Positions 31,692 to 60,198 of a stretch of DNA of 64,000 nt are shown here, piece by piece. The first letter of the stretch is position 1; each line of letters opens with the position of its first letter. Position numbers and translations under genes: made by a program. The stretch lies in NCBI RefSeq assembly GCF_017348835.2, contig NZ_CP072315.1. One strand, given 5' to 3'. The notes beneath the pieces are model-generated. The model did no database searches and was not told where the DNA came from. It was given only the letters and a program-made list of their open reading frames with translations. This DNA is from Escherichia coli. Its GTDB lineage: Bacteria; Pseudomonadota; Gammaproteobacteria; Enterobacterales; Enterobacteriaceae.

Positions 31692-31979
31692 ATGGAAAGC
31701 TTCGAAACTGAACAAATGATTCAATATGCTTTCTACATAAATATCGTAATAACGACTGGTTTGGCATGGTTTTGCTTGCGGTCAGGATTGCATTACAATT
31801 TTTTCAGAAAAGCAGAGAGTGCCAGAACAAAAGGGCTGAGTAGTACCTCTACTGAACACGGTCCAGCAATAGTGAGACTAAAGAAGCTACAAGCATTAGT
31901 AGATTTTATTAGTAACTGTGCTTTTCTAATCCTTTCAATTGGCACAGCTTATATTTTGTATGTTTGGAGCCACAGTTAA
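31692..31979 (+). CDS. Hypothetical small membrane protein
   Basis: ATG at 31692 gives 95 aa (MESFETEQ...); the track start at 31638 overlaps the previous gene. Confidence 0.4.
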   Translation: MESFETEQMIQYAFYINIVITTGLAWFCLRSGLHYNFFRKAESARTKGLSSTSTEHGPAIVRLKKLQALVDFISNCAFLILSIGTAYILYVWSHS

Positions 31980-32015
31980 CTCATACGAGGTAACTTCGGC
32001 AGGTAACAACTTCTA

Positions 32016-32246
32016 ATGCAGGACTTTAATAACTCTAAGGGATTCTACATGAAAAAAGACGATCTAATTACGCGTTGTAAATTACTTAAAGGCGAACGCG
32101 ATGAGTCTATCTTTACCATATTAATTGGGATAGTAGTAAAGCTGGGGCTGGTAGGCCTGGCATTCTATCTGTTGCTTGGTTCCACGATTGATTGGTCAAG
32201 CTGGAAAACTTATGCCGCCATGTTGATCTTGGGAGCATTTCTCTAA
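32016..32246 (+). CDS. Hypothetical small membrane protein
   Basis: 76-aa ORF (alternative start at 32049) with a hydrophobic helix. Confidence 0.4.
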   Translation: MQDFNNSKGFYMKKDDLITRCKLLKGERDESIFTILIGIVVKLGLVGLAFYLLLGSTIDWSSWKTYAAMLILGAFL

Positions 32247-32582
32247 AATCTTGAACCTTTTTTCACTCATTACAAGCCATGACCTAGTGCGTAGATCATA
32301 CGATCTTTAAACCTTATGTCATTGATTTATAAGTACATATAACAAAGATTATGTTAAATACTGTATGTATGTACAGCATCAACAGTTGCCCCCCTCATAT
32401 TGAGGTAATTGCTACATTCATACCACTATTCTTCTTATAGTATCGACATCCTGAATTATTGCACCCTACTGCTTTGTCTTTAGCTGTTCCGAATTAAAAT
32501 TCATTGCTCAATTTGGATCACATGACGATCAGCGTATTCCTTTGCTTTATCAAAGTTAAGTTTTTAAAACATAAGATATGTA

Positions 32583-33044
32583 ATGACAAATTCTCAATCT
32601 GATTTTCCTTTGAACGATCAAAATTTTCAGGCAGATTTGCTGAAAATCAAAAAGGTTTTCGCCGACCTTATAACGCAGGCATCAGATGGTAAGATACCCA
32701 TAAGGTCTTCTCATGTACACGGCTTACACCATTTCGAGGAGCTCTACATCCGGGCAAGAGCAGGCATGTGTTCGGTCCTGGGATATCCGGTCATGGTTGT
32801 TTCAACTATCTCAGTTAAAGAGCCCGGCACAGGCATTTTTAGAGCGCTTCTTGCAGAATTGAAATGTATTGCAGATGAACAAAATTACATTTTGAAAATT
32901 GAAAATGTACTGCCTCCCCTATTCCGCAAATACCTTATTCAAGAAGGTTTTGTTTTCCCAGGTGAACCTTGGATGTGTGGTTCCGGCTATTGGTTTAAGA
33001 ACCCACAAGTACTTCATGAAAATATTGAGTTATTATCTGTTTAA
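32583..33044 (+). CDS. Hypothetical protein, possibly GNAT-like
   Basis: 153-aa ORF; core resembling acetyl-CoA-binding motif A (KEPGTGIFRALLAEL) — weak inference. Confidence 0.4.
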   Translation: MTNSQSDFPLNDQNFQADLLKIKKVFADLITQASDGKIPIRSSHVHGLHHFEELYIRARAGMCSVLGYPVMVVSTISVKEPGTGIFRALLAELKCIADEQNYILKIENVLPPLFRKYLIQEGFVFPGEPWMCGSGYWFKNPQVLHENIELLSV

Positions 33045-33073
33045 GTCGATCTAACAATTTCACTGGAGCTAAC

Positions 33074-33481
33074 ATGTCCCCGGAATTGGTATCAGACATT
33101 GCAAGAGTGGCGCATGAAAAGCTACTTTCAATTTTAACGGAGTGCGGCATAGAGAAGACGGCAGGCACTTGCCTTTTTGCAAGCTATCTTGTGTGTTATT
33201 TAGCAAAAACTAAAGGTCTAGATGCTGTTGTCCGTGGGGGTAACGGTGCAGATGATGGCGGTATATTTATAGAGTGTGGTGGCTTTGGCCATTATTGGTG
33301 TGAGTTGAATTTCGAAGAAGTGCAATATTATATTGACATCACTTCCGAACAGTTTGGGTTTCATCCATACATAGTGAAACTCGCCAACGATATAACAGGA
33401 TGGCCTCGATATATTCCTGGTGATCAGGAAACGGTCGATAGTCATTTAGAACAATTATTACGCGACGGCTATACAGAATAG
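33074..33481 (+). CDS. Hypothetical protein with Cys-His-Asp triad-like spacing (possible papain/transglutaminase-like fold)
   Basis: 135-aa ORF with ordered conserved-looking C (GTCLF), H (GHYWC) and D (YYIDIT); 29 nt after the previous gene. Confidence 0.4.
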   Translation: MSPELVSDIARVAHEKLLSILTECGIEKTAGTCLFASYLVCYLAKTKGLDAVVRGGNGADDGGIFIECGGFGHYWCELNFEEVQYYIDITSEQFGFHPYIVKLANDITGWPRYIPGDQETVDSHLEQLLRDGYTE

Positions 33482-33531
33482 GCTGCGTATACCCTATCGC
33501 AGCCTTTCAGGCTCTTAACCCTTGTGACCTG

Positions 33532-34059
33532 TTAACGGAACCACTCAGGATGACGCTGCCGATCAACTTTGATAACCTGCGAATTAAATTCAACGACATC
33601 CGCTGGAGTAAGCATTAATTCATCAGGATTTACAATAAATGGTCTTAAAACCACTTCGCCACCGTCTTCTTTTGCACCGTAGATATTAATAAGAAAGTGC
33701 AGTCGTTGATTTCCTTCAGCATTGCGTTGCCATTCTCTAAAAGTCAAAGTTTGTTTAATATAGTTTGTTAAAAGAAATGCGAATTCAGATTCTTCCGTTT
33801 GTGAGATACCGATTTTGTTAGACATTTTTTTTAGTATCTTTCCGAGCATGGACACACAGGCATCTAGACTTAACGATGTTGAAATTTTGGTCGTATTAAA
33901 ATCCTCCTGCGAAAGTGAAATCATCCATGTATTATCTTTATGATAGTCGGTAATATAAATAAAATGAGATGTAAAAGGCGTTGAGTGATTGAACTCTCCT
34001 AAGTTCCATCCATACTGACTCACTGTATTTGAGCTAAGTTCTTTGTCGGTAATGTTCAT
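33532..34059 (-). CDS. Hypothetical protein
   Basis: 175-aa ORF. Confidence 0.4.
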   Translation of the reverse strand: MNITDKELSSNTVSQYGWNLGEFNHSTPFTSHFIYITDYHKDNTWMISLSQEDFNTTKISTSLSLDACVSMLGKILKKMSNKIGISQTEESEFAFLLTNYIKQTLTFREWQRNAEGNQRLHFLINIYGAKEDGGEVVLRPFIVNPDELMLTPADVVEFNSQVIKVDRQRHPEWFR

Positions 34060-34225
34060 AATTCATACCTTTCGATAAAGTCTGTAATGATAATTAGCTA
34101 TCTCAAAGGACCAGAACAACTCTTGAAATAACCACACTCGAAGAATTTATCATATTGAACACCCCTACCTAATAACCTTGCCGACTTAATAAATCACAAT
34201 AGCCCTCCCCTGACATTTTAAAATG

Positions 34226-34612
34226 CTACTTGAATTTTTGATAGCTTATGGTTGTTTTATGTTCTTTGTGATACGCATATGTCATCTTCTCTTTCCAGTA
34301 CCAATCTTGTAGATCCTGCAAGTCTAGCCCATTTTTCTCACGTATGCTTTCGTGTAATTCGCTAAGCGCGAGTTTATCATTAGGTTTATAAATGGCTAAT
34401 TTTTCTTCAAATAAATCCAGCCAACGTTTCCCCATCTTACGACGCAAAACAAACACCATCGTGATAAATGTAATGAAATGCACAGCAATTAGTTCCAACT
34501 TATGCGATTGCTGACCAGATAAAATTACTATTGTAACAACAGGGATGGCCGTATATAAAGCAATCAAAGCGACCATAAGTTGGTATGGTTTTTCCCGTAT
34601 TACCATGTTCAT
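34226..34612 (-). CDS. Hypothetical membrane protein
   Basis: 128-aa ORF with two hydrophobic helices; ends 41 bp from the Tn1721 inverted repeat. Confidence 0.45.
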   Translation of the reverse strand: MNMVIREKPYQLMVALIALYTAIPVVTIVILSGQQSHKLELIAVHFITFITMVFVLRRKMGKRWLDLFEEKLAIYKPNDKLALSELHESIREKNGLDLQDLQDWYWKEKMTYAYHKEHKTTISYQKFK

Positions 34613-34652
34613 GGGTAAACCAGAGGACGCTACTGCTTGCCAAAATCTTAAA

Positions 34653-34690
34653 GGGGAGCCCGCAGAATTCGGAAAAAATCGTACGCTAAG
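34653..34690 (+). repeat. Tn1721-type 38-bp terminal inverted repeat (IRR-like)
   Basis: GGGGAGCCCGCAGAATTCGGAAAAAATCGTACGCTAAG. Confidence 0.85.
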
Positions 34691-35360
34691 GTTTTCCGGG
34701 CATCCGTAAGGGCCGAAACTTCCCGTCTTCCAGTCTGCGGCTCTGCCGCCAGACGTAATCGCCGGTTAGGTTGATGTGCTCCCAGCCCAGCGGCGACAGG
34801 AATTGCAGCAGCTCGCCGTCCACCGGCTTGCCGGCCTCGACCAACCCCTGGGTGGCGCGTTCCAGGTACACCGTGTTCCACAGCACGATAGCCGCCGTCA
34901 CCAGGTTGAGGCCGCTGGCCCGGTAGCGCTGCTGCTCGAAGCTCCGATCCCTGATTTCCCCAAGGCGGTTGAAGAACACCGCCCTGGCCAGCGAGTTGCG
35001 CGCCTCACCTTTGTTCAGGCCGGCATGCACGCGGCGGCGCAGTTCAACACTTTGCAGCCAGTCCAGGATGAACAGCGTGCGCTCGATCCGGCCCAGCTCG
35101 CGCAGGGCCACGGCCAGTCCGTTCTGGCGCGGGTAGCTGCCGAGCTTGCGCAGCATCAGCGAGGCGGTGACGGTGCCCTGCTTGATCGAGCTGGCCAGGC
35201 GCAGGATGTCGTCCCAGTGGGCACGCACGTGCTTGATGTTCAGGGTGCCGCCGATCAGCGGGCGCAACGTCGGGTAGGCTTGCACGCCCTGCGGCACGTA
35301 CAGCTTGGTTTCGCCGAGGTCGCGGATGCGCGGCGCGAAGCGGAAGCCTAGCAGGTGCAT
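34686..35360 (-). pseudogene. tnpA: 3' fragment of a Tn21-subgroup (Tn1721-type) transposase gene
   Basis: 224-aa ORF ending inside the 38-bp inverted repeat with Tn3-family transposase C-terminal character; fragment continues to the Tn3 repeat junction near 35400. Confidence 0.7.
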
Positions 35361-35402
35361 CAGGGCAAAGACGTGATCGGTGAAGCCGGCCGTGTCGGTG
35401 TA

Positions 35403-35440
35403 GGGGTCTGACGCTCAGTGGAACGAAAACTCACGTTAAG
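35403..35440 (+). repeat. Tn3 38-bp terminal inverted repeat
   Basis: GGGGTCTGACGCTCAGTGGAACGAAAACTCACGTTAAG. Confidence 0.9.
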
Positions 35441-36738
35441 CAACGTTTTCTGCCTCTGACGCCTCTTTTAATGGTCTCAGATGTCCTTTGGTCACCAGTT
35501 CTGCCAGCGTGAAGGAATAATGGCCGAGCATATTGATATGTCCGTGGCAAAGCGGGGAGAGGCGTGCGATATCTTCATCATTCAGTGTTTCACCCTGCGC
35601 CCGGAGATGATCCAGGGCTGCCTGCATATAAATAGTGTTCCATAACACGACGGCGTTAGTGACCAGCCCCAGTGTGCCCAGTTGATCTTCCTGACCGTCG
35701 GTATATCGTTTTCTTATCTCACCTTTTTGACCGTGACAGATGGCTCTGGCAACGGCATGGCGACTTTCTCCCCGATTAAGCTGGGTCAGAATGCGCCGGC
35801 GGTAATCTTCATCATCAATATAATTAAGCAGATACAGCGTTTTGTTGATGCGCCCCACTTCAATGATTGCCTGAGTCAGTCCGGAAGGACGTTCACTTTT
35901 CAGCAATGAACGGACCAGCACTGAAACCTGTACTTTGCCCAGCTTCAGGGAGCCAGCGGTCCGGATCATTTCGTCCCACTGAAGGACTATTTTTCGGGGA
36001 TCTGATTGCCCTCTGGCAATATCATTCAGCACGCCATAGTCGGCATCATGGTCCATTCGCCAGAAAACCGAAGCACCGGCATCAGCCAGGCGTGGAGAAA
36101 ACTGGTATCCCAGCAGCCAGAAAAGGCCAAAGACAAGTTCGCTGGCACCTGCTGTATCGGTCATAATTTCGGTTGGATTCAGCCCGGTCTCCTGTTCCAG
36201 AAGACCTTCCAGCACAAAGATAGAGTCCCTCAGCGTCCCCGGTATAACGATGCCATGAAAGCCGGAATACTGATCGGACACAAAGTTGTACCAGGTGATC
36301 CCTCTGTTATTACCAAAGTATTTGCGGTTCGGTCCGGCATTGATTGTTCTGACTGGCGTAACAAAGCGCATTCCATCTGCAGATGCCACTTCTCCTCCAC
36401 CCCATATCTGTGCCAGTGGCAGCGTTGCCTGAAAATCAACCAGTCTGGCATTAGCGCTGGTGATAGTTTCAGCCCGCAGATAGTTCGCTTTTGTCCAGTT
36501 CAGCCGGTGTCGGGTCAGTGCAGGAACATTTGATCTGATCAGTGGTTCCAGACCGATATTGCAGGCTTCAGCCATCAGCACGGCGCTGATGCTGACGGGC
36601 AGATCATCAACTCTGGCACTGGCTTCACTAGCATGGAAAAACTCATCAGCAAATCCGGTATGGGCGTTAATTTCGAGCAGCAACTCCGTTAAATCCACCG
36701 GAGGGAGTAGATCACTGATCATTTTGCTCAGTCGTTTC
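35436..36738 (-). pseudogene. tnpA: Tn3 transposase gene, 3' portion, truncated by IS26
   Basis: About 430 C-terminal residues of Tn3-type TnpA (…RLSKMISDLLPPVDLTELLLEINAHTGF… to …HLRPLKEASEAENVA); the track ORF's start codon lies inside IS26. Confidence 0.85.
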
Positions 36739-37557
36739 GGCACTGTTGCAAATAGTCGGTGGTGATAAACTTATCATCCCCTTTTGCTGATGGAGCTGCA
36801 CATGAACCCATTCAAAGGCCGGCATTTTCAGCGTGACATCATTCTGTGGGCCGTACGCTGGTACTGCAAATACGGCATCAGTTACCGTGAGCTGCAGGAG
36901 ATGCTGGCTGAACGCGGAGTGAATGTCGATCACTCCACGATTTACCGCTGGGTTCAGCGTTATGCGCCTGAAATGGAAAAACGGCTGCGCTGGTACTGGC
37001 GTAACCCTTCCGATCTTTGCCCGTGGCACATGGATGAAACCTACGTGAAGGTCAATGGCCGCTGGGCGTATCTGTACCGGGCCGTCGACAGCCGGGGCCG
37101 CACTGTCGATTTTTATCTCTCCTCCCGTCGTAACAGCAAAGCTGCATACCGGTTTCTGGGTAAAATCCTCAACAACGTGAAGAAGTGGCAGATCCCACGA
37201 TCCTCAACACGGATAAAGCGCCCGCCTATGGTCGCGCGCTTGCTCTGCTCAAACGCGAAGGCCGGTGCCCGTCTGACGTTGAACACCGACAGATTAAGTA
37301 CCGGAACAACGTGATTGAATGCGATCATGGCAAACTGAAACGGATAATCAACGCCACGCTGGGATTTAAATCCATGAAGACGGCTTACGCCACCATCAAA
37401 GGTATTGAGGTGATGCGTGCACTACGCAAAGGCCAGGCCTCAGCATTTTATTATGGTGATCCCCTGGGCGAAATGCGCCTGGTAAGCAGAGTTTTTGAAA
37501 TGTAAGGCCTTTGAATAAGACAAAAGGCTGCCTCATCGCTAACTTTGCAACAGTGCC
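36739..37557 (+). mobile_element. IS26 copy 1 (819 bp, transposase frameshifted)
   Basis: 14-bp ends GGCACTGTTGCAAA / TTTGCAACAGTGCC; 1 bp shorter than the other copies from a change near 37198 (CCCACGATCCTCAACACGG versus CCCACGATTCATCAACACGG in other copies); no 8-bp target duplication. Confidence 0.9.
36802..37505 (+). pseudogene. tnp26: IS26 transposase gene, frameshifted
   Basis: Reading frame splits into track ORFs 36784..37314 and 37185..37505; protein diverges after KKWQIPR. Confidence 0.85.
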
Positions 37558-37680
37558 GCCCCAGCAGCATCTCCAGCTGTGAACGCTGTTCGGCTGACGG
37601 TATCAGTGCCAGTTTGTTCCACAGGCGCAACGTCGCCTTTTCCCTTACCTCTGAAATCAACCGGGTCAGCGTAGTGGCTC
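37558..37680 (-). pseudogene. tnpA: Internal fragment of Tn3 transposase gene
   Basis: Encodes …ISEVREKATLRLWNKLALIPSAEQRSQLEMLLG, an internal TnpA segment not contiguous with the 3' fragment on the other side of IS26; right boundary approximate. Confidence 0.6.
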
Positions 37681-37707
37681 CGGGGAGAATAATAGTCTAT
37701 CCCGGCA

Positions 37708-38085
37708 TTGCCAGTCGGGGATATTAAAAAGAGTATAGGTTTTTATTGCGATAAACTAGGTTTCACTTTGGTTCACCATGAAGATGGATTCGCAGTTCTA
37801 ATGTGTAATGAGGTTCGGATTCATCTATGGGAGGCAAGTGATGAAGGCTGGCGCTCTCGTAGTAATGATTCACCGGTTTGTACAGGTGCGGAGTCGTTTA
37901 TTGCTGGTACTGCTAGTTGCCGCATTGAAGTAGAGGGAATTGATGAATTATATCAACATATTAAGCCTTTGGGCATTTTGCACCCCAATACATCATTAAA
38001 AGATCAGTGGTGGGATGAACGAGACTTTGCAGTAATTGATCCCGACAACAATTTGATTAGCTTTTTTCAACAAATAAAAAGCTAA
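37708..38085 (+). CDS. bleO: Bleomycin-binding protein, Gram-positive (pUB110-type) BleO-like
   Basis: 125 aa from TTG at 37708; sequence PVGDIKKSIGFYCDKLGFTLVHHEDGFAVLMCNEVRIHLWEASDEGW… matches the pUB110 bleomycin-resistance protein as I recall it; an in-frame stop upstream suggests the native N-terminus is missing. Confidence 0.7.
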   Translation: MPVGDIKKSIGFYCDKLGFTLVHHEDGFAVLMCNEVRIHLWEASDEGWRSRSNDSPVCTGAESFIAGTASCRIEVEGIDELYQHIKPLGILHPNTSLKDQWWDERDFAVIDPDNNLISFFQQIKS

Positions 38086-38404
38086 AATCTATTATTAATC
38101 TGTTCAGCAATCGGGCGCGATTGCTGAATAAAAGATACGAGAGACCTCTCTTGTATCTTTTTTATTTTGAGTGGTTTTGTCCGTTACACTAGAAAACCGA
38201 AAGACAATAAAAATTTTATTCTTGCTGAGTCTGGCTTTCGGTAAGCTAGACAAAACGGACAAAATAAAAATCTAAATATGCTTGAACAACTTGTAACTTA
38301 AATTCATAACTGTATTTTGCCATAAAAAATGACCTCCCATAAGTTAGATTTTTGGTCTAACTTATGGGGGTCAGTTCATTCTACACTTGGGCTGCATGTT
38401 TTGA

Positions 38405-38797
38405 TTAATTATCTAATATCTCCGGATCTCCTGTAAAGGAATATAAAACTGCCTGCATGTTTTTCAAATAAAATACGGTGAATTTCCCATCATCAGCGCT
38501 ATACCAATCTCTCAAATGCGGATTTGCTTCAAGCATTGCTTCCCTTGCTTCCACGGTATCATCAATTACGGCTTCGCCGGTGAGCCGAATCCATTTTCCT
38601 TTTGCCATACCTGAGACTTCCACCTTTGAATTTGCCAATAACTGCTGATAAACTTTTTTCTGATTGGTTGTACCAAGATAGACCTTGCCATTCCTCTCCA
38701 TGGCTGCATTAAACGGTCTGACCCTTGGCTGGTCTCCTTCAACGGTTGCAAAATAAAAAGTTTTTGCTTCATTTAAAAAATCAACAACTTGACTCAT
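38405..38797 (-). CDS. Pyridoxamine 5'-phosphate oxidase-like (flavin-binding split-barrel) protein
   Basis: 130-aa ORF in an AT-rich, Gram-positive-like segment; fold assignment tentative. Confidence 0.5.
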   Translation of the reverse strand: MSQVVDFLNEAKTFYFATVEGDQPRVRPFNAAMERNGKVYLGTTNQKKVYQQLLANSKVEVSGMAKGKWIRLTGEAVIDDTVEAREAMLEANPHLRDWYSADDGKFTVFYLKNMQAVLYSFTGDPEILDN

Positions 38798-39079
38798 CCT
38801 TTTTTACCTCCATAAATAAATTTTTCTTTACTTTTCTTTGACCTAAATTCCACGTGCATTTTTTATTAGCTTAAAAGAACACTATTTCACGAAGAATTTA
38901 AACTGATACTCCCACATTGTAACATTATTTACCACCACCTTTCAATCTTTTTCAATAAATTATTGATTGCAACTTTTGAGTAAAGATACTTATTAAACCC
39001 TGCAAGTTATCCACAGAGCAACACTCGATTTTCAAGATGATATCTTTATTACACCAGACATTTTTCATACACTTCCTTG

Positions 39080-39899: not shown

Positions 39900-40207
39900 C
39901 AAACGCGAAGGCCGGTGCCCGTCTGACGTTGAACACCGACAGATTAAGTACCGGAACAACGTGATTGAATGCGATCATGGCAAACTGAAACGGATAATCG
40001 GCGCCACGCTGGGATTTAAATCCATGAAGACGGCTTACGCCACCATCAAAGGTATTGAGGTGATGCGTGCACTACGCAAAGGCCAGGCCTCAGCATTTTA
40101 TTATGGTGATCCCCTGGGCGAAATGCGCCTGGTAAGCAGAGTTTTTGAAATGTAAGGCCTTTGAATAAGACAAAAGGCTGCCTCATCGCTAACTTTGCAA
40201 CAGTGCC
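39900..40207 (+). mobile_element. Partial IS26 (3' terminal 308 bp)
   Basis: Encodes the C-terminal about 80 aa of Tnp26 with Gly at position 184 (KRIIGATLG); ends with TTTGCAACAGTGCC. Confidence 0.85.
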
Positions 40208-40416
40208 GGCTGAAGGCCGAGCAAGCCTGACAGGCCCGAAAAGCCCGGCACGGGCGTCGGCGGCGATGACGGCGGCGGCATTATCCAGGGTTGATGATGG
40301 AAGTGGAGGATATCGACAACCTCTCGCGCAACCAAGACATCGCGGTCGGACTGCAAGTGATCTTGAAGCCACGGGCCCGTCCCACCCCGACATGGACCTC
40401 GATGCCCGAACGGACG

Positions 40417-40917: not shown

Positions 40918-41044
40918 TCGCTCCCCTGGCGCGGTATGAACCGCCGCCTCATAGTGCAGTTTGATCCTGACGAGCCCAGCATGTCTGCGCCCACCTTCGC
41001 GGAACCTGACCAGGGTCCGCTAGCGGGCGGCCGGAAGGTGAATG

Positions 41045-42225: not shown

Positions 42226-42335
42226 GATATATCTCCCAATTTGTGTAGGGCTTATTATGCACGCTTAAAAATAATAAAAGCAGACTTGACCTGATAGTTT
42301 GGCTGTGAGCAATTATGTGCTTAGTGCATCTAACG
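42223..42335 (-). repeat. About 110-bp direct repeat, copy A (start of 3'-conserved segment upstream of qacEdelta1)
   Basis: CCCAATTTGTGTAGGGCTTATTATGCACGCTTAAAAATAATAAAAGCAGACTTGACCTGATAGTTTGGCTGTGAGCAATTATGTGCTTAGTGCATCTAACG. Confidence 0.9.
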
Positions 42336-42341
42336 CCTGAA

Positions 42342-46800: not shown

Positions 46801-47620
46801 GGCACTGTTGCAAATAGTCGGTGGTGATAAACTTATCATCCCCTTTTGCTGATGGAGCTGCACATGAACCCATTCAAAGGCCGGCATTTTCAGCGTGACA
46901 TCATTCTGTGGGCCGTACGCTGGTACTGCAAATACGGCATCAGTTACCGTGAGCTGCAGGAGATGCTGGCTGAACGCGGAGTGAATGTCGATCACTCCAC
47001 GATTTACCGCTGGGTTCAGCGTTATGCGCCTGAAATGGAAAAACGGCTGCGCTGGTACTGGCGTAACCCTTCCGATCTTTGCCCGTGGCACATGGATGAA
47101 ACCTACGTGAAGGTCAATGGCCGCTGGGCGTATCTGTACCGGGCCGTCGACAGCCGGGGCCGCACTGTCGATTTTTATCTCTCCTCCCGTCGTAACAGCA
47201 AAGCTGCATACCGGTTTCTGGGTAAAATCCTCAACAACGTGAAGAAGTGGCAGATCCCACGATTCATCAACACGGATAAAGCGCCCGCCTATGGTCGCGC
47301 GCTTGCTCTGCTCAAACGCGAAGGCCGGTGCCCGTCTGACGTTGAACACCGACAGATTAAGTACCGGAACAACGTGATTGAATGCGATCATGGCAAACTG
47401 AAACGGATAATCAACGCCACGCTGGGATTTAAATCCATGAAGACGGCTTACGCCACCATCAAAGGTATTGAGGTGATGCGTGCACTACGCAAAGGCCAGG
47501 CCTCAGCATTTTATTATGGTGATCCCCTGGGCGAAATGCGCCTGGTAAGCAGAGTTTTTGAAATGTAAGGCCTTTGAATAAGACAAAAGGCTGCCTCATC
47601 GCTAACTTTGCAACAGTGCC
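46801..47620 (+). mobile_element. IS26 copy 3 (820 bp)
   Basis: Both 14-bp ends; no target duplication. Confidence 0.95.
46864..47568 (+). CDS. tnp26: IS26 transposase Tnp26 (Asn at position 184)
   Basis: 234 aa; KRIINATLG. Confidence 0.9.
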   Translation: MNPFKGRHFQRDIILWAVRWYCKYGISYRELQEMLAERGVNVDHSTIYRWVQRYAPEMEKRLRWYWRNPSDLCPWHMDETYVKVNGRWAYLYRAVDSRGRTVDFYLSSRRNSKAAYRFLGKILNNVKKWQIPRFINTDKAPAYGRALALLKREGRCPSDVEHRQIKYRNNVIECDHGKLKRIINATLGFKSMKTAYATIKGIEVMRALRKGQASAFYYGDPLGEMRLVSRVFEM

Positions 47621-48213
47621 TTTGCACACATATGGAATCTGTAAATCATTTTGGACAAACCCGAAAAGAAATCCGTGAGTATGTAGATCTTAATAAGATT
47701 ACTGACCAGGTTAGTATCCCTGAAGATGGTGAAGTCGTTAATCTTTAATTATACATCCCCACAACTTTAATCAGGCAGTTACTCATTATGGTTTTACTGG
47801 TGACTGCCGGCCCTCTTAGCATTCGAAATTTTTTATGTCACCCGATTTAGTTCCGCGCACTTTTTGAGATTTCCGGGGTTTCAGCCATCAGCCGGAAATT
47901 ACAGAGGGCAATGGCTGAAGAAGGTTTTTCCCCGCGATAGCGCAAGTTTCCACAAAAGGGCATCGAATTTTTTGAATGCCCTTTTCTTACCCCATCCCCT
48001 CATAACTTTATGTTTTTATTAACTTCGCGTTTTCGACGCCAGCGTTGGCCAGCTGCTGCCGGCGACGTGGCCACACAACCGATTATTCAAGTTCGCTGAA
48101 TGAGTTTTTACGGGCTGTATGCAACACAAATGCTACGATAATGCCCCCGGACAATACCGGCTCCCAATAATCCGGGGTGGGTTTGTTCTGCCGGTTTAGT
48201 CCGGGGAGCAAGG

Positions 48214-48501
48214 TCACTTTGAGGGGAGATCTTCAGCAAGTAATTTTCCATGCGCGATAAGCCACCTGCGGCGTTTTGCCATCCACTGCTGAAATTCAGA
48301 GGTGCTCTCAACCTTCAGCACATCCTTCCGCTTCCAGGCCATTATGGGGCCAGCTTTTTGTGGTTGGTCGAGAAAGTCAGATATGGCTTTATCAGTCCAG
48401 TACCGCGCTTTCAATCCACTTTTACTTATCCAGTTATCGTGCCATTCAGCGCTTGCTTTAGCGCGTGAATCGGCGGCGTTGTAATAAAGCCTTACCGTCA
48501 T
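48214..48501 (-). CDS. Hypothetical protein
   Basis: 95-aa ORF downstream of the helicase fragment. Confidence 0.35.
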   Translation of the reverse strand: MTVRLYYNAADSRAKASAEWHDNWISKSGLKARYWTDKAISDFLDQPQKAGPIMAWKRKDVLKVESTSEFQQWMAKRRRWLIAHGKLLAEDLPSK

Positions 48502-48510
48502 TACTCGCTC

Positions 48511-48965
48511 CTATAATCTCAAGGCTCTGTCATCGTTATTTTTTTCATGGCCTTTATCTTTAGGCCGGGCATTACCTTTATCCTGCGTCGGCTCGGCTTT
48601 GTCTCGGCCTTTTTCGCGGGTATCATGCTGCTGCTCTTTGGCATAGCGTTTGAGTTGTTCCAGCTCAAGCGCGGCGGTTTTGAACCCTTCCCGGCTGGCC
48701 GCTTTATCCAGCTTCTTCTCATCGTCGGTGTAAATGACGGCTTCGTGTTTAGCGCGGGTGACAGCCACGTAATAAACATCTTTGGCCGTTGTGAGTGATC
48801 GGGTATCCATATTGATAAAAACCTTGTCGCAGGTCAGCCCCTGAGCACTATGAACGGTCGAAGCGTAAGCCAGCCCTAAGTACATAGGTTTGTTGGCATC
48901 AATTTTTACCAGCCGCCCTTTCTCGTTCTCCAGCAGTACCTCACCACTCTGGACGCTTTTTACCT
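48511..48965 (-). pseudogene. 3' fragment of a RecD/TraI-type helicase (relaxase-like) gene, interrupted by Tn1721
   Basis: C-terminal helicase motifs (YASTVHSAQGLTCDKVFI, YVAVTRAKHEAVIYTDD); the reading frame continues up to the inverted repeat at 48972 with no start. Confidence 0.6.
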
Positions 48966-48971
48966 TAAAAC

Positions 48972-49009
48972 GGGGGAACCGCAGAATTCGGAAAAAATCG
49001 TACGCTAAG
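48972..49009 (+). repeat. Tn1721-type 38-bp terminal inverted repeat (IRL-like)
   Basis: GGGGGAACCGCAGAATTCGGAAAAAATCGTACGCTAAG. Confidence 0.85.
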
Positions 49010-49160
49010 CTAACGGTGTTCTCGTGACAGCTCTTTGACTAGGCTTTCTAAGGCCATTCTGATAGCCCTGACTTCCTGAAAAGCCATGGCTAAAATTTGT
49101 GCGGCTAAAAGGGATAACCGATGGTAAAGTAAGTTATCCCTGTCGAGATACTGAAAAGCG

Positions 49161-50738
49161 TTATCCTCGTTTTTCCCAAAACTGTTTTGCCAGTTCGCTC
49201 AGAGCGCTAGTTAACTGAGCGACAGATTTCGCACTTTGCAAATTATTCTGCCCGGTCTGTACATTGGTATCAGCAGCATCGCGTATATTGATAATACTGC
49301 GGTTTATGTCTTCACTTACTGCTCCCTGCTGCTCGACCGCAGTCGCTATTTGCGCGTTCATGTCGGTAATTTCGTTAACGCGTTGGCCAATTCCATCAAG
49401 AGCTGTAGCTGCTTCCTCTGCGTGAGCTACACTCGTGTGCGCTTGCCGACTACTTTGCTCCATGACTGTAACAGCGGATTGCGCTCGCTCTTGTAGAGCG
49501 CTGATCATGCTTTGAATATCCGTTGTCGATTGCTGTGTGCGAGCAGCAAGACTGCGAACCTCATCGGCGACAACAGCAAAACCACGCCCCTGCTCACCAG
49601 CACGCGCGGCCTCAATTGCTGCGTTGAGTGCCAACAAATTCGTTTGCTCGGCGATCCCTCGTATAACGTCAAGAACTTTTGATATCTCGTTACTTTGACC
49701 TTCAAGCTCATGAATAACCTGAGTGGCTTGCCTAATTTCACCTTCAAGGGCAGTGATTGACTGGCTTGTGTGGGCTACCAGACGCTGGCCAGATGCCGTC
49801 TCAGTGTCTGCTCTTCCGGCCGCATCTGCAGCATGCTGTGCATTGCTCGCAACCTCTTGAATGCTTGCCACCATTTGGTTTACTGCCGTTGCTATTTGAT
49901 CTGTCTCTGCCTGCTGCTCAACTGTAAGTACATTGCTTGACTCAATATCCTTTAGTAGGCCTCGGGTGTGTTCGCTAAGCCGATTTGATGCATCACCTAT
50001 GCGACCTACTATGGCGCCTGTTTCAGCTTGCATCATTCGTAAAGCAAACTCTATTTGGCCAAACTCATCGGTGCGCCCAGTGTAGAGGGATTGACTTAAT
50101 GGGTTATTGGAAATATTCCTGGCTCTTTCAACCAGTCTTCCAAGAGGAGAGAGAATAGCCAAAACACTAACAGAGCTTAAGCTTCCTGACATTAAAGTGG
50201 CTAACAATAAGCTGCTTATTGATGTATCAGTAAGCATGCCGGCAGCCATTGCGCTTGATATAATACTACCCCATATGAGCAAGAGTATTTTCACGGAAAA
50301 GCTAGCAGCCAATTTCGGCCTCGCGGCCTTCCCGCTTCTCAATTGAGCATATAATTTTTCCGCAGCCAAAACCTGCTCAGGTTCAGGCTTGGTCCTTACA
50401 GACTGGTATTCAACAATCGAACCATTCTTAGCTATTGGCGTTACATAAGCACTTACCCAATAGTGGTCGCCATTTTTACAGCGATTTTTTACTAGCCCCA
50501 TCCATGAGCGGCCAGATTTTAATGTACTCCACATATGCTCAAATGCAGCAGGCGGCATATCTGGGTGTCTTACGATGTTGTGAGGCTGGCCTAATAGTTC
50601 TTCCTCAGTGAAACCACTGATTTTAATGAAGTCAGGATTAACGTACGTGATATGGCTTTGAGGGGAGGTAGTCGAAAGAATATTGGCATCTTTTGGGAGT
50701 TCTAAGTTTCGACCCGTCACTGGTAAATTCTGGCGCAT
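49161..50738 (-). CDS. Methyl-accepting chemotaxis-like protein (Tn1721 orfI-type) with N-terminal PAS-like region
   Basis: 525 aa from [20 protein letters not shown] signalling-domain character; the 730-aa track ORF is a fusion with antisense IS26 sequence. Confidence 0.8.
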
Positions 50739-50762
50739 AAGAACCTCAAGGGTTGGCTGTTT

Positions 50763-51582
50763 GGCACTGTTGCAAATAGTCGGTGGTGATAAACTTATCA
50801 TCCCCTTTTGCTGATGGAGCTGCACATGAACCCATTCAAAGGCCGGCATTTTCAGCGTGACATCATTCTGTGGGCCGTACGCTGGTACTGCAAATACGGC
50901 ATCAGTTACCGTGAGCTGCAGGAGATGCTGGCTGAACGCGGAGTGAATGTCGATCACTCCACGATTTACCGCTGGGTTCAGCGTTATGCGCCTGAAATGG
51001 AAAAACGGCTGCGCTGGTACTGGCGTAACCCTTCCGATCTTTGCCCGTGGCACATGGATGAAACCTACGTGAAGGTCAATGGCCGCTGGGCGTATCTGTA
51101 CCGGGCCGTCGACAGCCGGGGCCGCACTGTCGATTTTTATCTCTCCTCCCGTCGTAACAGCAAAGCTGCATACCGGTTTCTGGGTAAAATCCTCAACAAC
51201 GTGAAGAAGTGGCAGATCCCGCGATTCATCAACACGGATAAAGCGCCCGCCTATGGTCGCGCGCTTGCTCTGCTCAAACGCGAAGGCCGGTGCCCGTCTG
51301 ACGTTGAACACCGACAGATTAAGTACCGGAACAACGTGATTGAATGCGATCATGGCAAACTGAAACGGATAATCGGCGCCACGCTGGGATTTAAATCCAT
51401 GAAGACGGCTTACGCCACCATCAAAGGTATTGAGGTGATGCGTGCACTACGCAAAGGCCAGGCCTCAGCATTTTATTATGGTGATCCCCTGGGCGAAATG
51501 CGCCTGGTAAGCAGAGTTTTTGAAATGTAAGGCCTTTGAATAAGACAAAAGGCTGCCTCATCGCTAACTTTGCAACAGTGCC
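50763..51582 (+). mobile_element. IS26 copy 4 (820 bp)
   Basis: Both 14-bp ends; lies 24 bp upstream of the mcp start codon. Confidence 0.95.
50826..51530 (+). CDS. tnp26: IS26 transposase Tnp26 (Gly at position 184)
   Basis: 234 aa; KRIIGATLG. Confidence 0.9.
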
Positions 51583-51812: not shown

Positions 51813-51823
51813 GCCTCGCTCGA

Positions 51824-57503: not shown

Positions 57504-57802
57504 CGGGCACTGGCTGGCAATGTCTAGCAACGGCAGGCATTTCGGCTGAGGGTAAAAGAACTTTCCGCTAAGCGATAGACTGTATGTAAACACAGTATTG
57601 CAAGGACGCGGAACATGCCTCATGTGGCGGCCAGGACGGCCAGCCGGGATCGGGATACTGGTCGTTACCAGAGCCACCGACCCGAGCAAACCCTTCTCTA
57701 TCAGATCGTTGACGAGTATTACCCGGCATTCGCTGCGCTTATGGCAGAGCAGGGAAAGGAATTGCCGGGCTATGTGCAACGGGAATTTGAAGAATTTCTC
57801 CA
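57498..57802 (+). mobile_element. ISCR2 5' fragment (305-bp direct repeat of 53214-53518)
   Basis: Identical by eye to the start of the complete ISCR2, including the first 63 codons of its transposase. Confidence 0.85.
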
Positions 57803-58969
57803 AAGCCCGCGACGCAGCGCCGGCAGGCAGAGCAAGTAGAGGGCAGCGCCTGCAATCCATGCCCACCCGTTCCACGTTGTTATAGAAGCCGCATAGATCG
57901 CCGTGAAGAGGAGGGGTCCGACGATCGAGGTCAGGCTGGTGAGCGCCGCCAGTGAGCCTTGCAGCTGCCCCTGACGTTCCTCATCCACCTGCCTGGACAA
58001 CATTGCTTGCAGCGCCGGCATTCCGATGCCACCCGAAGCAAGCAGGACCATGATCGGGAACGCCATCCATCCCCGTGTCGCGAAGGCAAGCAGGATGTAG
58101 CCTGTGCCGTCGGCAATCATTCCGAGCATGAGTGCCCGCCTTTCGCCGAGCCGGGCGGCTACAGGGCCGGTGATCATTGCCTGGGCGAGTGAATGCAGAA
58201 TGCCAAATGCGGCAAGCGAAATGCCGATCGTGGTCGCGTCCCAGTGAAAGCGATCCTCGCCGAAAATGACCCAAAGCGCGGCCGGCACCTGTCCGACAAG
58301 TTGCATGATGAAGAAGACCGCCATCAGGGCGGCGACGACGGTCATGCCCCGGGCCCACCGGAACGAAGCGAGCGGGTTGAGAGCCTCCCGGCGTAACGGC
58401 CGGCGTTCGCCTTTGTGCGACTCCGGCAAAAGGAAACAGCCCGTCAGGAAATTGAGGCCGTTCAAGGCTGCCGCGGCGAAGAACGGAGCGTGGGGGGAGA
58501 AACCGCCCATCAGCCCACCGAGCACAGGTCCCGCGACCATCCCGAACCCGAAACAGGCGCTCATGAAGCCGAAGTGCCGCGCGCGCTCATCGCCATCAGT
58601 GATATCGGCAATATAAGCGCCGGCTACCGCCCCAGTCGCCCCGGTGATGCCGGCCACGATCCGCCCGATATAGAGAACCCAAAGGAAAGGCGTCGTCGCC
58701 ATGATGGCGTAGTCGACAGCAGCGCCGGCCAGCGAGACGAGCAAGACCGGCCGCCGCCCGAAACGATCCGACAGCGCGCCCAGCACAGGTGCGCAGGCAA
58801 ATTGCATCAACGCATACAGCGCCAGCAGAATGCCATAGTGGGCGGTGACGTCGTTCGAGTGAACCAGATCGCGCAGGAGGCCCGGCAGCACCGGCATAAT
58901 CAGGCCGATGCCGACAGCGTCGAGCGCGACAGTGCTCAGAATTACGATCAGGGGTCTGTTGGGTTTCAC
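57770..58969 (-). CDS. tetA(A): Tetracycline efflux protein TetA(A), 3' end replaced by ISCR2-derived sequence
   Basis: 399 aa from a GTG start (V)KPNRPLIVILSTVALDAVG…; the last 33 nt lie inside the ISCR2 fragment, giving a …RRGLWRNSSNSRCT C-terminus. Confidence 0.9.
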   Translation of the reverse strand: MKPNRPLIVILSTVALDAVGIGLIMPVLPGLLRDLVHSNDVTAHYGILLALYALMQFACAPVLGALSDRFGRRPVLLVSLAGAAVDYAIMATTPFLWVLYIGRIVAGITGATGAVAGAYIADITDGDERARHFGFMSACFGFGMVAGPVLGGLMGGFSPHAPFFAAAALNGLNFLTGCFLLPESHKGERRPLRREALNPLASFRWARGMTVVAALMAVFFIMQLVGQVPAALWVIFGEDRFHWDATTIGISLAAFGILHSLAQAMITGPVAARLGERRALMLGMIADGTGYILLAFATRGWMAFPIMVLLASGGIGMPALQAMLSRQVDEERQGQLQGSLAALTSLTSIVGPLLFTAIYAASITTWNGWAWIAGAALYLLCLPALRRGLWRNSSNSRCT

Positions 58970-59017
58970 GTCTGGCCTCCGGACCAGCCTCCGCTGGTCC
59001 GATTGAACGCGCGGATT

Positions 59018-59066
59018 CTTTATCACTGATAAGTTGGTGGACATATTATGTTTATCAGTGATAAAG
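59018..59066. promoter_or_regulatory. tet operator region (two palindromic operators) between tetA and tetR
   Basis: TTTATCACTGATAA and TTTATCAGTGATAAA palindromes in the divergent intergenic region. Confidence 0.8.
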
Positions 59067-59074
59067 TGTCAAGC

Positions 59075-59725
59075 ATGACAAAGTTGCAGCCGAATACAGT
59101 GATCCGTGCCGCCCTGGACCTGTTGAACGAGGTCGGCGTAGACGGTCTGACGACACGCAAACTGGCGGAACGGTTGGGGGTTCAGCAGCCGGCGCTTTAC
59201 TGGCACTTCAGGAACAAGCGGGCGCTGCTCGACGCACTGGCCGAAGCCATGCTGGCGGAGAATCATACGCATTCGGTGCCGAGAGCCGACGACGACTGGC
59301 GCTCATTTCTGATCGGGAATGCCCGCAGCTTCAGGCAGGCGCTGCTCGCCTACCGCGATGGCGCGCGCATCCATGCCGGCACGCGACCGGGCGCACCGCA
59401 GATGGAAACGGCCGACGCGCAGCTTCGCTTCCTCTGCGAGGCGGGTTTTTCGGCCGGGGACGCCGTCAATGCGCTGATGACAATCAGCTACTTCACTGTT
59501 GGGGCCGTGCTTGAGGAGCAGGCCGGCGACAGCGATGCCGGCGAGCGCGGCGGCACCGTTGAACAGGCTCCGCTCTCGCCGCTGTTGCGGGCCGCGATAG
59601 ACGCCTTCGACGAAGCCGATCCGGACGCAGCGTTCGAGCAGGGACTCGCGGTGATTGTCGATGGATTGGCGAAAAGGAGGCTCGTTGTCAGGAACGTTGA
59701 AGGACCGAGAAAGGGTGACGATTGA
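59075..59725 (+). CDS. tetR(A): Tetracycline repressor TetR(A)
   Basis: 216 aa from MTKLQPNTVIRAALDLLNEVGVDGLTTRKLAERLGVQQPALYWHF. Confidence 0.95.
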   Translation: MTKLQPNTVIRAALDLLNEVGVDGLTTRKLAERLGVQQPALYWHFRNKRALLDALAEAMLAENHTHSVPRADDDWRSFLIGNARSFRQALLAYRDGARIHAGTRPGAPQMETADAQLRFLCEAGFSAGDAVNALMTISYFTVGAVLEEQAGDSDAGERGGTVEQAPLSPLLRAAIDAFDEADPDAAFEQGLAVIVDGLAKRRLVVRNVEGPRKGDD

Positions 59726-60198
59726 TCAGGACCGCTGCCGGAGCGCAACCCACTCACTACAGCAGAGCCATGTAGACAACATCCCCTCCCCCTTTCCACC
59801 GCGTCAGACGCCCGTAGCAGCCCGCTACGGGCTTTTTCATGCCCTGCCCTAGCGTCCAAGCCTCACGGCCGCGCTCGGCCTCTCTGGCGGCCTTCTGGCG
59901 CTCCTGCTGCGGCGTCCGCTCGTGGGCCGTGGCGCGGGTCCGCGCGCCGGCCTCGTGCGCCTGGCGCTCGCGGGCGAGGTCCAGGGCGGCCGTCTTCACG
60001 TTCTGCCTTGCGCAGATGAGATAGATCTAGCGTGGACTCAAGGCTCTCGCGAATGGCTCGCGTTGGAAACTTTCATTGACACTTGAGGGGCACCGCAGGG
60101 AAATTCTCGTCCTTGCGAGAACCGGCTATGTCGTGCTGCGCATCGAGCCTGCGCCCTTGGCTTGTCTCGCCCCTCTCCGCGTCGCTACGGGGCTTCCA

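What the first reader, a model, noticed from the sequence alone, without database searches (positions are those of the whole stretch)
34653..35440. Tn1721-type end directly abutting a Tn3 end; both Tn1721 repeats in the same orientation
A Tn1721-like 38-bp repeat at 34653 with a tnpA 3' remnant is joined near 35400 to a Tn3 repeat and a Tn3 tnpA 3' fragment. A second Tn1721-like repeat at 48972 (next to the mcp gene) reads in the same orientation as the first, so the two ends cannot bound one intact transposon. At least one inversion or replicon fusion, probably IS26-mediated, has occurred between them.
Basis: partly seen in the sequence, partly recalled or inferred. Interest (0 to 1): 0.3.

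Follow-up and report, generated by a model that had tools for sequence, protein, structure and literature searches.

The report
Nested transposon scars in resistance plasmid
This is an ordinary, already-described kind of patchwork in a multidrug-resistance plasmid: an ampicillin-resistance transposon (Tn2/Tn3 type) jumped into the tail of a tetracycline-resistance transposon (Tn1721), and a second, unrelated Tn1721 end was later carried in on a piece of another plasmid between two IS26 copies.

Summary
34653-34690 is an exact Tn1721/Tn1722 right-end repeat, followed by the last 712 nt of its tnpA. 35403-35440 is an exact Tn1/2/3 repeat, followed by the 3' 1.3 kb of Tn2-type tnpA, which IS26 cuts at 36739. 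48972-49009 is the exact Tn1721 left-end repeat with mcp, in the same reading direction.

The Tn1721/Tn3 junction is one half of a normal Tn2 insertion into the Tn1721 tnpA remnant. Plasmid pCERC5 carries the complete Tn1721::Tn2 at the identical position with the 5-bp duplication GTGTA (2 differences in 2086 nt). This arrangement is published, and at least 155 PLSDB plasmids carry most of the block.

The two Tn1721 ends come from different insertion events:
- The right end sits in IncHI2 backbone (flank TTAAA) and marks the left edge of the resistance island. In relatives, its original partner end was lost with 4.4 kb of backbone next to an IS26.
- The left end interrupts the relaxase gene of a ~33-kb MOBF plasmid (flank AAAAC). 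It lies in a 3.1-kb block between two direct IS26 copies.

So capture of foreign plasmid DNA, probably by IS26, is supported. Inversion of a single transposon is not. The finding is known biology of low interest.

The parts
34226..34652 (-). IncHI2 backbone: a hypothetical gene cut by the Tn1721 insertion. The last 5 nt (34648-34652, TTAAA) are the target-site copy.
   Evidence: The gene is an intact 492-nt ORF at the empty site (...ATCTTAAA|TACCTTCC...) in the R478-like IncHI2 plasmid pCTXM9_020038. 947 PLSDB records carry this backbone stretch.
34653..34690 (+). Tn1721/Tn1722 38-bp right-end inverted repeat (IRR type), with the transposon interior to the right. It forms the left boundary of the resistance island.
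   Evidence: Exact match with 0 expected by chance. It is identical to the IRR of a complete Tn1722-type copy. The same junction with the same backbone occurs in pSTM6-275, pEC22-CTX-M-15, p2016062-242 and pEC-14-2-9-2.
34686..35402 (-). 3' remnant of Tn1721 tnpA: 238 codons plus the stop codon, which lies inside the IR. 35398-35402 (GTGTA) is the target-site copy of the Tn2 insertion.
   Evidence: 100% identical to Tn1722 copy positions 4891-5607. Matches NF033527 Tn3-family transposase profile positions 736-954. GTGTA flanks both ends of the complete Tn2 in pCERC5.
35403..35440 (+). Tn1/Tn2/Tn3-type 38-bp inverted repeat (the tnpA-proximal end), with the interior to the right.
   Evidence: Single exact match in the window with 0 expected by chance. 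The same repeat bounds the 4,950-bp tnpA-tnpR-blaTEM-1 element in pCERC5.
35436..36738 (-). 3' 1.3 kb (about 43%) of Tn2-type tnpA, truncated by IS26.
   Evidence: Window 34653-36738 differs from pCERC5 Tn1721::Tn2 at 2 of 2086 nt. Matches NF033527 profile positions 547-954. The IS26 end lies at 36739.
36739..37557 (+). IS26 copy 1: 819 bp, with a 1-nt deletion that breaks the transposase frame.
   Evidence: BLAST against the 820-bp copy gives 1 mismatch and 1 gap. The ORF is split.
46801..47620 (+). IS26 copy 3, the left bracket of the imported block.
   Evidence: It has the same orientation as copy 4. The 8-nt flanks CGTAAATC and GCGCGACG do not match.
47621..48971 (.). Foreign plasmid fragment. 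It consists of 275 nt of the 3' end of an MBL-fold hydrolase gene, then a small ORF (48214-48501, -), then the last 461 nt of a MobF relaxase gene (48511-48971, -). 48967-48971 (AAAAC) flanks the Tn1721 left end.
   Evidence: 100% identical over 1351 nt to E. coli H3 plasmid A, where mobF is uninterrupted. 47896-48971 equals the backbone of ~33-kb MOBF/MPF_T plasmids. The translated fragment hits relaxase/helicase C-terminal profiles. It is not IncHI2 backbone: 221 records carry it against 947 for the backbone.
48972..49009 (+). Tn1721/Tn1722 38-bp left-end inverted repeat (IRL type), with the interior to the right.
49010..50762 (-). Tn1721 left arm: an intact mcp (orfI) gene at 49161-50738 plus 24 nt upstream, cut by IS26.
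   Evidence: 100% identical to Tn1722 copy positions 1-1791. Annotated as a PAS-domain methyl-accepting chemotaxis protein in relatives, with profile hits to match.
50763..51582 (+). IS26 copy 4, the right bracket of the imported block.
57798..60024 (-). Tn1721 tetracycline module: tet(A) on the minus strand, tetR on the plus strand, and the relic ORF. It has the same orientation and order relative to the 34653 end as in an intact Tn1721.
   Evidence: 99.9% identical to pCERC5 L007 11556-13782, collinear with the IRR fragment.

Best explanation
The window is part of the resistance island of an IncHI2 plasmid, and the finding is a set of scars from at least four ordinary events.

1. A Tn1721-family transposon inserted into a small backbone gene of an IncHI2 ancestor at TTAAA. 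Its right end (34653) has remained the left border of the island ever since.
2. A Tn2 (Tn3-type, blaTEM) transposon inserted by normal replicative transposition into the duplicated tnpA remnant beside that right end, 750 nt from the tip, duplicating GTGTA. This may have happened in this plasmid. More likely it happened in another Tn1721 copy that was later exchanged in by homologous recombination.
3. IS26 then truncated the Tn2. IS26- and ISCR2-associated modules accumulated between the Tn2 stump and the tet(A)-tetR module. Another IS26 removed the original Tn1721 left end together with 4.4 kb of backbone.
4. A different Tn1721/Tn1722 copy, which had inserted into the relaxase gene of a small MOBF conjugative plasmid at AAAAC, was cut down by IS26. 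It was brought in as a 3.1-kb segment between two direct IS26 copies, either by cointegrate formation or as a translocatable unit. It happens to point the same way as the resident right end.

Neither Tn1721 end can move in this setting. No Tn1721 tnpA or tnpR survives in the window, and the two repeats are in direct rather than inverted orientation.

Shown: the sequence identities, the positions of the junctions, the empty sites, and the complete Tn1721::Tn2. Inferred: the order of events, and the roles of IS26 and of homologous recombination.
For: Identity and orientation of all fragments:
-.

Normal Tn2 insertion:
- The predicted reciprocal junction (Tn2 far repeat + GTGTA + upstream Tn1721 tnpA) exists as a single 434-nt, 100% match in many plasmids.
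- pCERC5 has the whole 4,950-bp Tn2 flanked by GTGTA inside a complete Tn1721.
- At least 155 PLSDB records cover at least 80% of window 34300-36760. Many begin exactly at the Tn1721 repeat, with different outside flanks.

IncHI2 anchoring:
- The empty site is seen in pCTXM9_020038.
- pSTM6-275 has the same site with an uninterrupted Tn1721 right arm and no Tn2.
- In pSTM6-275 and p2016062-242 the island ends at an IS26, and the backbone resumes 4,421 nt beyond the insertion site.

Foreign origin of the left end:
- Its flank is mobF and neighbouring DNA of other plasmids.
- The 5-nt flanks differ.
- The bracketing IS26 copies are in direct orientation.
- The same mobF|IRL junction occurs in only 9 PLSDB records. 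One is an IncFIB plasmid with longer flanking DNA and different IS26 cut points.

Module shuffling between IS26 copies:
- It is visible in the comparisons with pEC22-CTX-M-15, H3 plasmid A and pFT130-2.

Recombination at Tn1721 remnants in IncHI2 plasmids:
- Published in PMC8920835 and PMC9019673.
Against: - No record with either reciprocal outer junction was found: IRL + TTAAA + IncHI2 backbone, or IRR + AAAAC + the rest of mobF. Both original complete insertions are therefore inferred rather than observed.
- The 8-nt flanks of the bracketing IS26 pair do not match. A single simple IS26 copy-in event cannot be demonstrated.
- The Tn2 lies at exactly the same position in IncHI2 plasmids and in ColV plasmids, while pSTM6-275 lacks it at the same IncHI2 site. 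This needs an extra step, either recombinational exchange or loss, that I did not test.
- The prototype sequences of Tn1721 (X61367) and of Tn1/Tn2/Tn3 were not available. 'Tn1721' rests on a Tn1722-type copy and on pCERC5. 'Tn2' rests on published naming of pCERC5-like elements and on one record's annotation (H159).
Confidence: 0.85

Rival explanations
1. A single Tn1721 resident in the IncHI2 plasmid was split by an inversion. One breakpoint lay inside the transposon and one outside it, for example through intramolecular IS26 transposition in the inverse orientation. This flipped the left arm so that both ends now read the same way.
For: The left arm (48972-50762) is inverted relative to the right-end fragment and the tet module. 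IS26-bounded inversions clearly occur in this plasmid family: in pEC22-CTX-M-15 the repC-sul2-strAB-tetRA block is inverted relative to the window.
Against: - The DNA outside the left end is not IncHI2 backbone. It is a relaxase-gene fragment from another plasmid type.
- The 5-nt flanks do not match, TTTAA versus AAAAC.
- The bracketing IS26 copies are direct, not inverted as intramolecular inversion would leave them.
- In relatives the original left side of the island was deleted together with 4.4 kb of backbone.
Confidence: 0.05
2. The arrangement is an assembly artefact: contigs were misjoined across repeated IS26 copies or the shared 30-nt core of the Tn1721 repeats.
For: The region holds four IS26 copies plus one partial copy, which are classic misassembly points. 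One IS26 copy has a 1-nt deletion that could be a sequencing error.
Against: - The three junctions of the finding (34652/3, 35402/3 and 48971/2) lie in unique sequence.
- p2016062-242 is collinear with the window at 99.99% over 31889-39899 and 39896-59051, including both Tn1721 ends.
- Nine records share the mobF|IRL junction, and at least 155 share the IRR-tnpA-Tn2-IS26 block.
Confidence: 0.03
3. The solitary Tn1721 ends arose by one-ended transposition. A single 38-bp repeat, with TnpA supplied in trans, fused replicons directly. On this view the mobF|IRL junction, the backbone|IRR junction, or both, never had a partner end.
For: No reciprocal junction was found for either end.
Against: - pSTM6-275 and pCERC5 show the right end as part of an otherwise orderly Tn1721 right arm.
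- The left arm is collinear with Tn1722 from position 1 until IS26 cuts it. That is what truncation of a normal insertion gives.
- Loss of the partner ends is fully explained by the adjacent IS26 copies.
Confidence: 0.04
4. Tn2 inserted independently into the IncHI2-resident Tn1721 at the same nucleotide as in ColV plasmids (a hot spot). On this view it was not imported by recombination or by transposition of a pre-formed Tn1721::Tn2.
For: pSTM6-275 has the same IncHI2 insertion site without Tn2. A Tn2-free ancestor on this backbone is therefore plausible.
Against: The window differs from pCERC5 at only 2 of 2086 nt across both elements, and the junction is identical. The whole IRR-tnpA-Tn2 stump, with the same IS26 cut point, occurs behind many different outside flanks. 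That indicates one ancestral event that spread afterwards.
Confidence: 0.1

Closest known systems
Tn1721::Tn2 of ColV/IncF plasmids pCERC5, p2009_36_F and pF2_14D_F (NZ_KU664810, NZ_MK461929, NZ_MK461928; described in PMC6807379)
   Same: The Tn2 insertion point in the right-hand Tn1721 tnpA remnant is identical, 712 nt of tnpA from the IRR, with the same GTGTA target. Window 34653-36738 differs at 2 of 2086 nt.
   Different: In pCERC5 both transposons are complete and Tn1721 has properly inverted ends. Here IS26 cuts Tn2 after 1.3 kb, the Tn1721 transposition genes are gone, and about 21 kb of other modules separates the stump from tet(A).
Tn1721-bordered resistance islands of IncHI2 plasmids (pSTM6-275, NZ_CP019647; p2016062-242, NZ_CP090540; pEC22-CTX-M-15, NZ_CP084901)
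   Same: The backbone|IRR junction at TTAAA is the same. In the relatives the island ends at an IS26 with a 4.4-kb backbone deletion. p2016062-242 is collinear with the window, including the second Tn1721 end.
   Different: pSTM6-275 lacks the Tn2 insertion and the imported left-end block. p2016062-242 carries an extra 8.8-kb oqxAB plus tnpR-blaTEM-1 segment. pEC22-CTX-M-15 lacks the left-end block and has the tet/IncQ module inverted.
IS26-bounded segments (pseudo-compound transposons or translocatable units), and Tn1721-remnant-mediated plasmid fusion in IncHI2 plasmids (PMC9019673, PMC8920835)
   Same: Two direct IS26 copies bracket a passenger segment (47621-50762) that is also found next to IS26 in other replicons. 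Tn1721 remnants in the same orientation are documented recombination substrates in this plasmid family.
   Different: No 8-bp duplication flanks the IS26 pair. The passenger carries no resistance gene, only plasmid-backbone debris plus mcp.

Membership tests
Tn1721/Tn1722 (Tn3-family unit transposon) | 38-bp terminal repeats identical to those of a complete element | tested here: met
   34653-34690 equals the IRR and 48972-49009 equals the IRL of a 5,640-bp copy flanked by a TTAAA duplication in pRHB14-C22_2.
Tn1721/Tn1722 (Tn3-family unit transposon) | The two terminal repeats are in inverted orientation and bound the element | tested here: not met
   Both repeats are on the + strand with the interior to the right, 14.3 kb apart.
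Tn1721/Tn1722 (Tn3-family unit transposon) | Matching 5-bp target duplication outside both ends | tested here: not met
   In transposon orientation the flanks are TTTAA (right end) and AAAAC (left end). One flank is IncHI2 backbone and the other is a mobF fragment.
Tn1721/Tn1722 (Tn3-family unit transposon) | Intact tnpA, tnpR and res | tested here: not met
   Only element positions 1-1791 and 4890-5640 are present in the window. The tnpA remnant covers profile positions 736-954 only.
Tn1721/Tn1722 (Tn3-family unit transposon) | tetR-tet(A) module inward of the right-hand tnpA remnant and IRR (feature specific to Tn1721) | tested here: met
   Window 57798-60024 matches the pCERC5 tet module in the same order and orientation as the IRR fragment, although about 21 kb of inserted material separates them.
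Tn1721/Tn1722 (Tn3-family unit transposon) | Identity to the prototype sequence X61367 | not tested
   The prototype is not in the searchable collections. Published Tn1721-carrying records were used as proxies.
Tn1/Tn2/Tn3 (blaTEM transposons) | 38-bp terminal repeat and adjoining tnpA 3' end | tested here: met
   The repeat is exact at 35403-35440. The tnpA remnant differs from the pCERC5 Tn2 at 2 nt and matches profile positions 547-954.
Tn1/Tn2/Tn3 (blaTEM transposons) | 5-bp target duplication showing true transposition | tested here: met
   Only one end is present in the window. The other end, with the same GTGTA and the continuing Tn1721 sequence, is present in pCERC5 and many other records.
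Tn1/Tn2/Tn3 (blaTEM transposons) | Complete element (tnpR, res, blaTEM, second repeat) | tested here: not met
   The window holds a single repeat. Only pCERC5 positions up to the IS26 cut, plus a 137-nt tnpA scrap, match the window.
Tn1/Tn2/Tn3 (blaTEM transposons) | Assignment to Tn2 rather than Tn3 or Tn1 | not tested
From memory, that portion is the most diagnostic. 'Tn2' follows PMC6807379 and the annotation of OV141395.
IS26-bounded pseudo-compound transposon / translocatable unit | Two IS26 copies in direct orientation flanking the passenger | tested here: met
   IS26 at 46801-47620 and at 50763-51582 both align 1-820 on the + strand.
IS26-bounded pseudo-compound transposon / translocatable unit | 8-bp target duplication outside the pair | tested here: not met
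   The outside flanks are CGTAAATC and GCGCGACG. This fits a targeted or conservative route, or later rearrangement, and so does not rule out IS26 involvement.
IS26-bounded pseudo-compound transposon / translocatable unit | The same passenger occurs next to IS26 in other replicons | tested here: met
   The IncFIB plasmid pFT130-2 has the same mobF|IRL junction between IS26 copies at different cut points.

The most novel reading that the evidence does not exclude
The two solitary, same-direction Tn1721 ends may not be inert scars. With Tn1721-family transposase supplied in trans by a co-resident plasmid, they might drive one-ended transposition and replicon fusion. The short Tn1721 remnants might also act as preferred recombination handles that repeatedly swap whole resistance modules, such as the Tn2 stump, between IncHI2, IncF and small MOBF plasmids. 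That would explain why the same Tn2 insertion point appears on unrelated backbones.
Probability: 0.07. Interest if true: 0.3.

Novelty: already known. Interest (0 to 1): 0.08.

Why it matters
The result has little value beyond annotation. It shows that the Tn1721 right end is the fixed left border of the resistance island in this IncHI2 lineage. It also shows that the Tn2 stump is a widely shared marker, and that the second Tn1721 end marks DNA captured from a small MOBF conjugative plasmid. Such junctions can serve as epidemiological signatures for tracking plasmid lineages. They do not reveal a new element or mechanism.

Tried and rejected
- I searched PLSDB for both predicted reciprocal outer junctions: Tn1721 IRL + TTAAA + IncHI2 backbone, and Tn1721 IRR + AAAAC + the rest of mobF. 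Neither was found. The best IncHI2 hits were empty sites. The two best mobF hits (a K. pneumoniae KPC plasmid and an E. cloacae plasmid) matched only as two separated pieces; in the K. pneumoniae plasmid, the one I inspected, the Tn1721-based element sits at a different site downstream of an intact mobF.
- An apparent 5-nt flank identity between the window's IRL and the IRL in E. coli H3 plasmid A proved to be a gapped-alignment artefact: GGAAAA| versus TAAAAC|.
- pEC-14-2-9-2 matched 34300-36760 at 100%, but downstream it is arranged differently. It is not the source and did not help with the right-hand boundary.
- PMC3817090 and PMC7355605 describe other Tn1721 derivatives (Tn21-oriV-ΔTn1721; Tn1721/Tn21 hybrids) but not this junction.
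- I did not resolve Tn2 versus Tn3 versus Tn1, because no reference sequences were available.

Full report
**Observation**

- The Tn1721-type 38-mer matches 34653-34690 (+) perfectly and 48972-49009 (+) with three mismatches. No matches appeared in 100 shuffles.
- The Tn3-type 38-mer matches once, at 35403-35440 (+), perfectly.

As a working reference I used a complete 5,640-bp Tn1722-type element in pRHB14-C22_2. It has IRL, mcp, tnpR, tnpA and IRR, and is flanked by a TTAAA duplication. Its IRL is identical to the window's 48972 repeat, and its IRR is identical to the 34653 repeat. BLAST against it gives two fragments:
- Window 34653-35403 equals element positions 5640-4890, at 100% identity, in reverse orientation.
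- Window 48972-50762 equals positions 1-1791, at 100% identity, in forward orientation.

No other Tn1721 transposition sequence is in the window. Both ends therefore have their interior to the right, so they are in direct rather than inverted orientation, 14.3 kb apart. At the protein level, both minus-strand remnants are C-terminal pieces of Tn3-family transposases: NF033527 profile positions 736-954 and 547-954.

**What the Tn1721/Tn3 junction is**

The Tn3-type repeat does not touch the Tn1721 repeat. It abuts an internal point of Tn1721 tnpA, 750 nt from the tip. I built the predicted reciprocal junction: the far Tn2 repeat, then GTGTA, then the upstream Tn1721 tnpA sequence. It occurs as a single 434-nt, 100% match in many plasmids.

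In pCERC5 the whole structure is intact. A complete Tn1721 contains a 4,950-bp tnpA-tnpR-blaTEM-1 transposon. That transposon is flanked by GTGTA on both sides and sits at the same nucleotide. Window 34653-36738 differs from pCERC5 at only 2 of 2086 positions.

[quoted passage not shown] So the abutment is half of a normal nested transposition, later truncated by IS26 at 36739. At least 155 PLSDB records cover at least 80% of 34300-36760. Many of them start exactly at the Tn1721 repeat and have different DNA outside it. The stump is therefore an old, widely disseminated structure.

**Where the right end sits**

The sequence left of 34653 is IncHI2 backbone, carried by 947 PLSDB records.
- An R478-like plasmid, pCTXM9_020038, shows the empty site ...ATCTTAAA|TACCTTCC... 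inside an intact 492-nt ORF.
- pSTM6-275 has the same backbone|IRR junction, followed by an uninterrupted Tn1721 right arm (tnpA remnant, orf, pecM, tet(A), tetR) with no Tn2.
- In pSTM6-275 and in the window's closest relative, p2016062-242, the island ends at an IS26. The backbone resumes 4,421 nt beyond the insertion site.

So the original left end of this Tn1721 was lost through an IS26-associated deletion. In the window, the tet(A)-tetR module (57798-60024) keeps the order and orientation relative to the 34653 end that it has in pCERC5. Both therefore plausibly descend from the same Tn1721 copy, now separated by about 21 kb of inserted modules.

**Where the left end came from**

The 1,351 nt left of 48972 are not IncHI2 DNA.
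- 47896-48971 matches the backbone of ~33-kb MOBF/MPF_T conjugative plasmids. It ends 461 nt before the stop codon of their mobF relaxase gene.
- 47621-47895 is the end of an MBL-fold hydrolase gene.
- The whole 1,351 nt is 100% identical to E. coli H3 plasmid A, where mobF is uninterrupted.

The 5-nt flank is AAAAC. The right end's flank, read in transposon orientation, is TTTAA. The two ends therefore record two separate insertions into two different replicons.

The block 47621-50762 lies between two IS26 copies in direct orientation, and their outer 8-nt flanks do not match. Only nine PLSDB records share the mobF|IRL junction. One of them, the IncFIB plasmid pFT130-2, carries longer left-hand DNA and a different IS26 cut point in mcp. 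This is consistent with a segment that IS26 has moved and trimmed repeatedly.

Comparison with pEC22-CTX-M-15, H3 plasmid A and pFT130-2 shows the same modules in other orders and orientations between IS26 copies.

**Mechanism**

Shown:
- The identity and orientation of every fragment.
- The two empty sites.
- The intact Tn1721::Tn2 comparator.
- The IS26 positions and orientations.

Inferred:
- The order of events.
- That IS26, by cointegrate or translocatable-unit formation, brought in the left-end block.
- That the Tn2-bearing version of the right arm reached, or left, the IncHI2 site by homologous recombination between Tn1721 copies. Recombination at Tn1721 remnants is documented in IncHI2 plasmids (PMC8920835 and PMC9019673).

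Neither end is expected to be mobile here, because there is no Tn1721 transposase or resolvase and the repeats are direct.

**Rivals**

- Inversion of one resident Tn1721. This is contradicted by the foreign flank, the mismatched 5-nt flanks and the direct IS26 orientation.
- Misassembly. This is unlikely because the three junctions lie in unique sequence and recur in independent complete records. p2016062-242 is collinear with the window at 99.99%.
- One-ended transposition. This cannot be excluded, since no reciprocal outer junction was found. It is also unnecessary, since IS26 truncation explains both solitary ends.
- Independent hot-spot insertion of Tn2. This is unlikely given the near-identity to pCERC5 and the shared IS26 cut point.

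**Comparison with known systems and verdict**

The structure works like, and is, a decayed Tn1721::Tn2 nested transposon. It sits at the edge of an IS26-shuffled IncHI2 resistance island, with a second Tn1721 left arm imported from another plasmid.
- As a transposon bounded by the two Tn1721 repeats, it fails every structural test: orientation, target duplication and transposition genes.
- As sequence fragments of Tn1721 and of a Tn2-type element, it passes.
- I could not align to the prototype sequences (X61367; Tn1/Tn2/Tn3), so the Tn2-versus-Tn3 label rests on published naming of the pCERC5-type element.

It is not right in its 'inversion' form, and it missed that the Tn1721/Tn3 junction is a plain transposition event. 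This is known biology, and interest is low.

Noticed in passing
window 36739-37557: This IS26 copy is 819 bp. It has a 1-nt deletion and one mismatch relative to the 820-bp copy at 46801-47620, which splits the transposase ORF. p2016062-242 aligns across it without a gap, so the defect appears to be shared rather than a one-off read error.
   Followed up: partly
window 37558-37694: About 137 nt of Tn2 tnpA (97% identical to pCERC5) lies immediately right of IS26 copy 1. IS26 therefore sits within Tn2 tnpA with about 1.1 kb deleted. The sequence then switches to a bleO / pyridoxamine-oxidase module.
   Followed up: partly
window 39080-40207: A full IS26 (minus strand) overlaps by 4 nt a partial IS26 (positions 509-820, plus strand). 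In p2016062-242 an 8.8-kb block lies at this point, carrying oqxAB plus the missing Tn2 tnpR-blaTEM-1. The window looks like a deletion derivative.
   Followed up: partly
window 49161-50738: The Tn1721 mcp (orfI) gene is intact. IS26 copy 4 cuts only 24 nt upstream of its start codon and removes the res/promoter region. The raw ORF list shows an artificial 730-aa ORF running into IS26.
   Followed up: no
window 60016-60240: The Tn1721 tet module stops exactly at the outer edge of where the internal repeat IRRI would begin (…AGATGAGATA|). About 177 nt then joins it to a Tn5393-type terminal repeat (GGGGTCGTTTGCGGGAAGGGGCGGAATCCTACGCTAAG, 60202-60239), followed by strB-strA-sul2-repC of IncQ origin. 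The identity of the Tn5393 repeat rests on my own knowledge.
   Followed up: partly
window 53213-53519 and 57497-57803; tet(A) ORF 57770-59044: A 307-nt direct repeat flanks the ISVsa3-floR-lysR segment. The Tn1721 match starts 25 nt inside the tet(A) 3' end, giving a 424-aa ORF with a replaced C-terminus.
   Followed up: no
L012 (NZ_CP088271.1) 9587-16333: A Tn1721-based blaKPC-2 element in a K. pneumoniae plasmid is inserted just downstream of the same family of mobF gene. The site differs from the one in the window. This suggests that small MOBF plasmids are recurrent targets for Tn1721-family elements.
   Followed up: no
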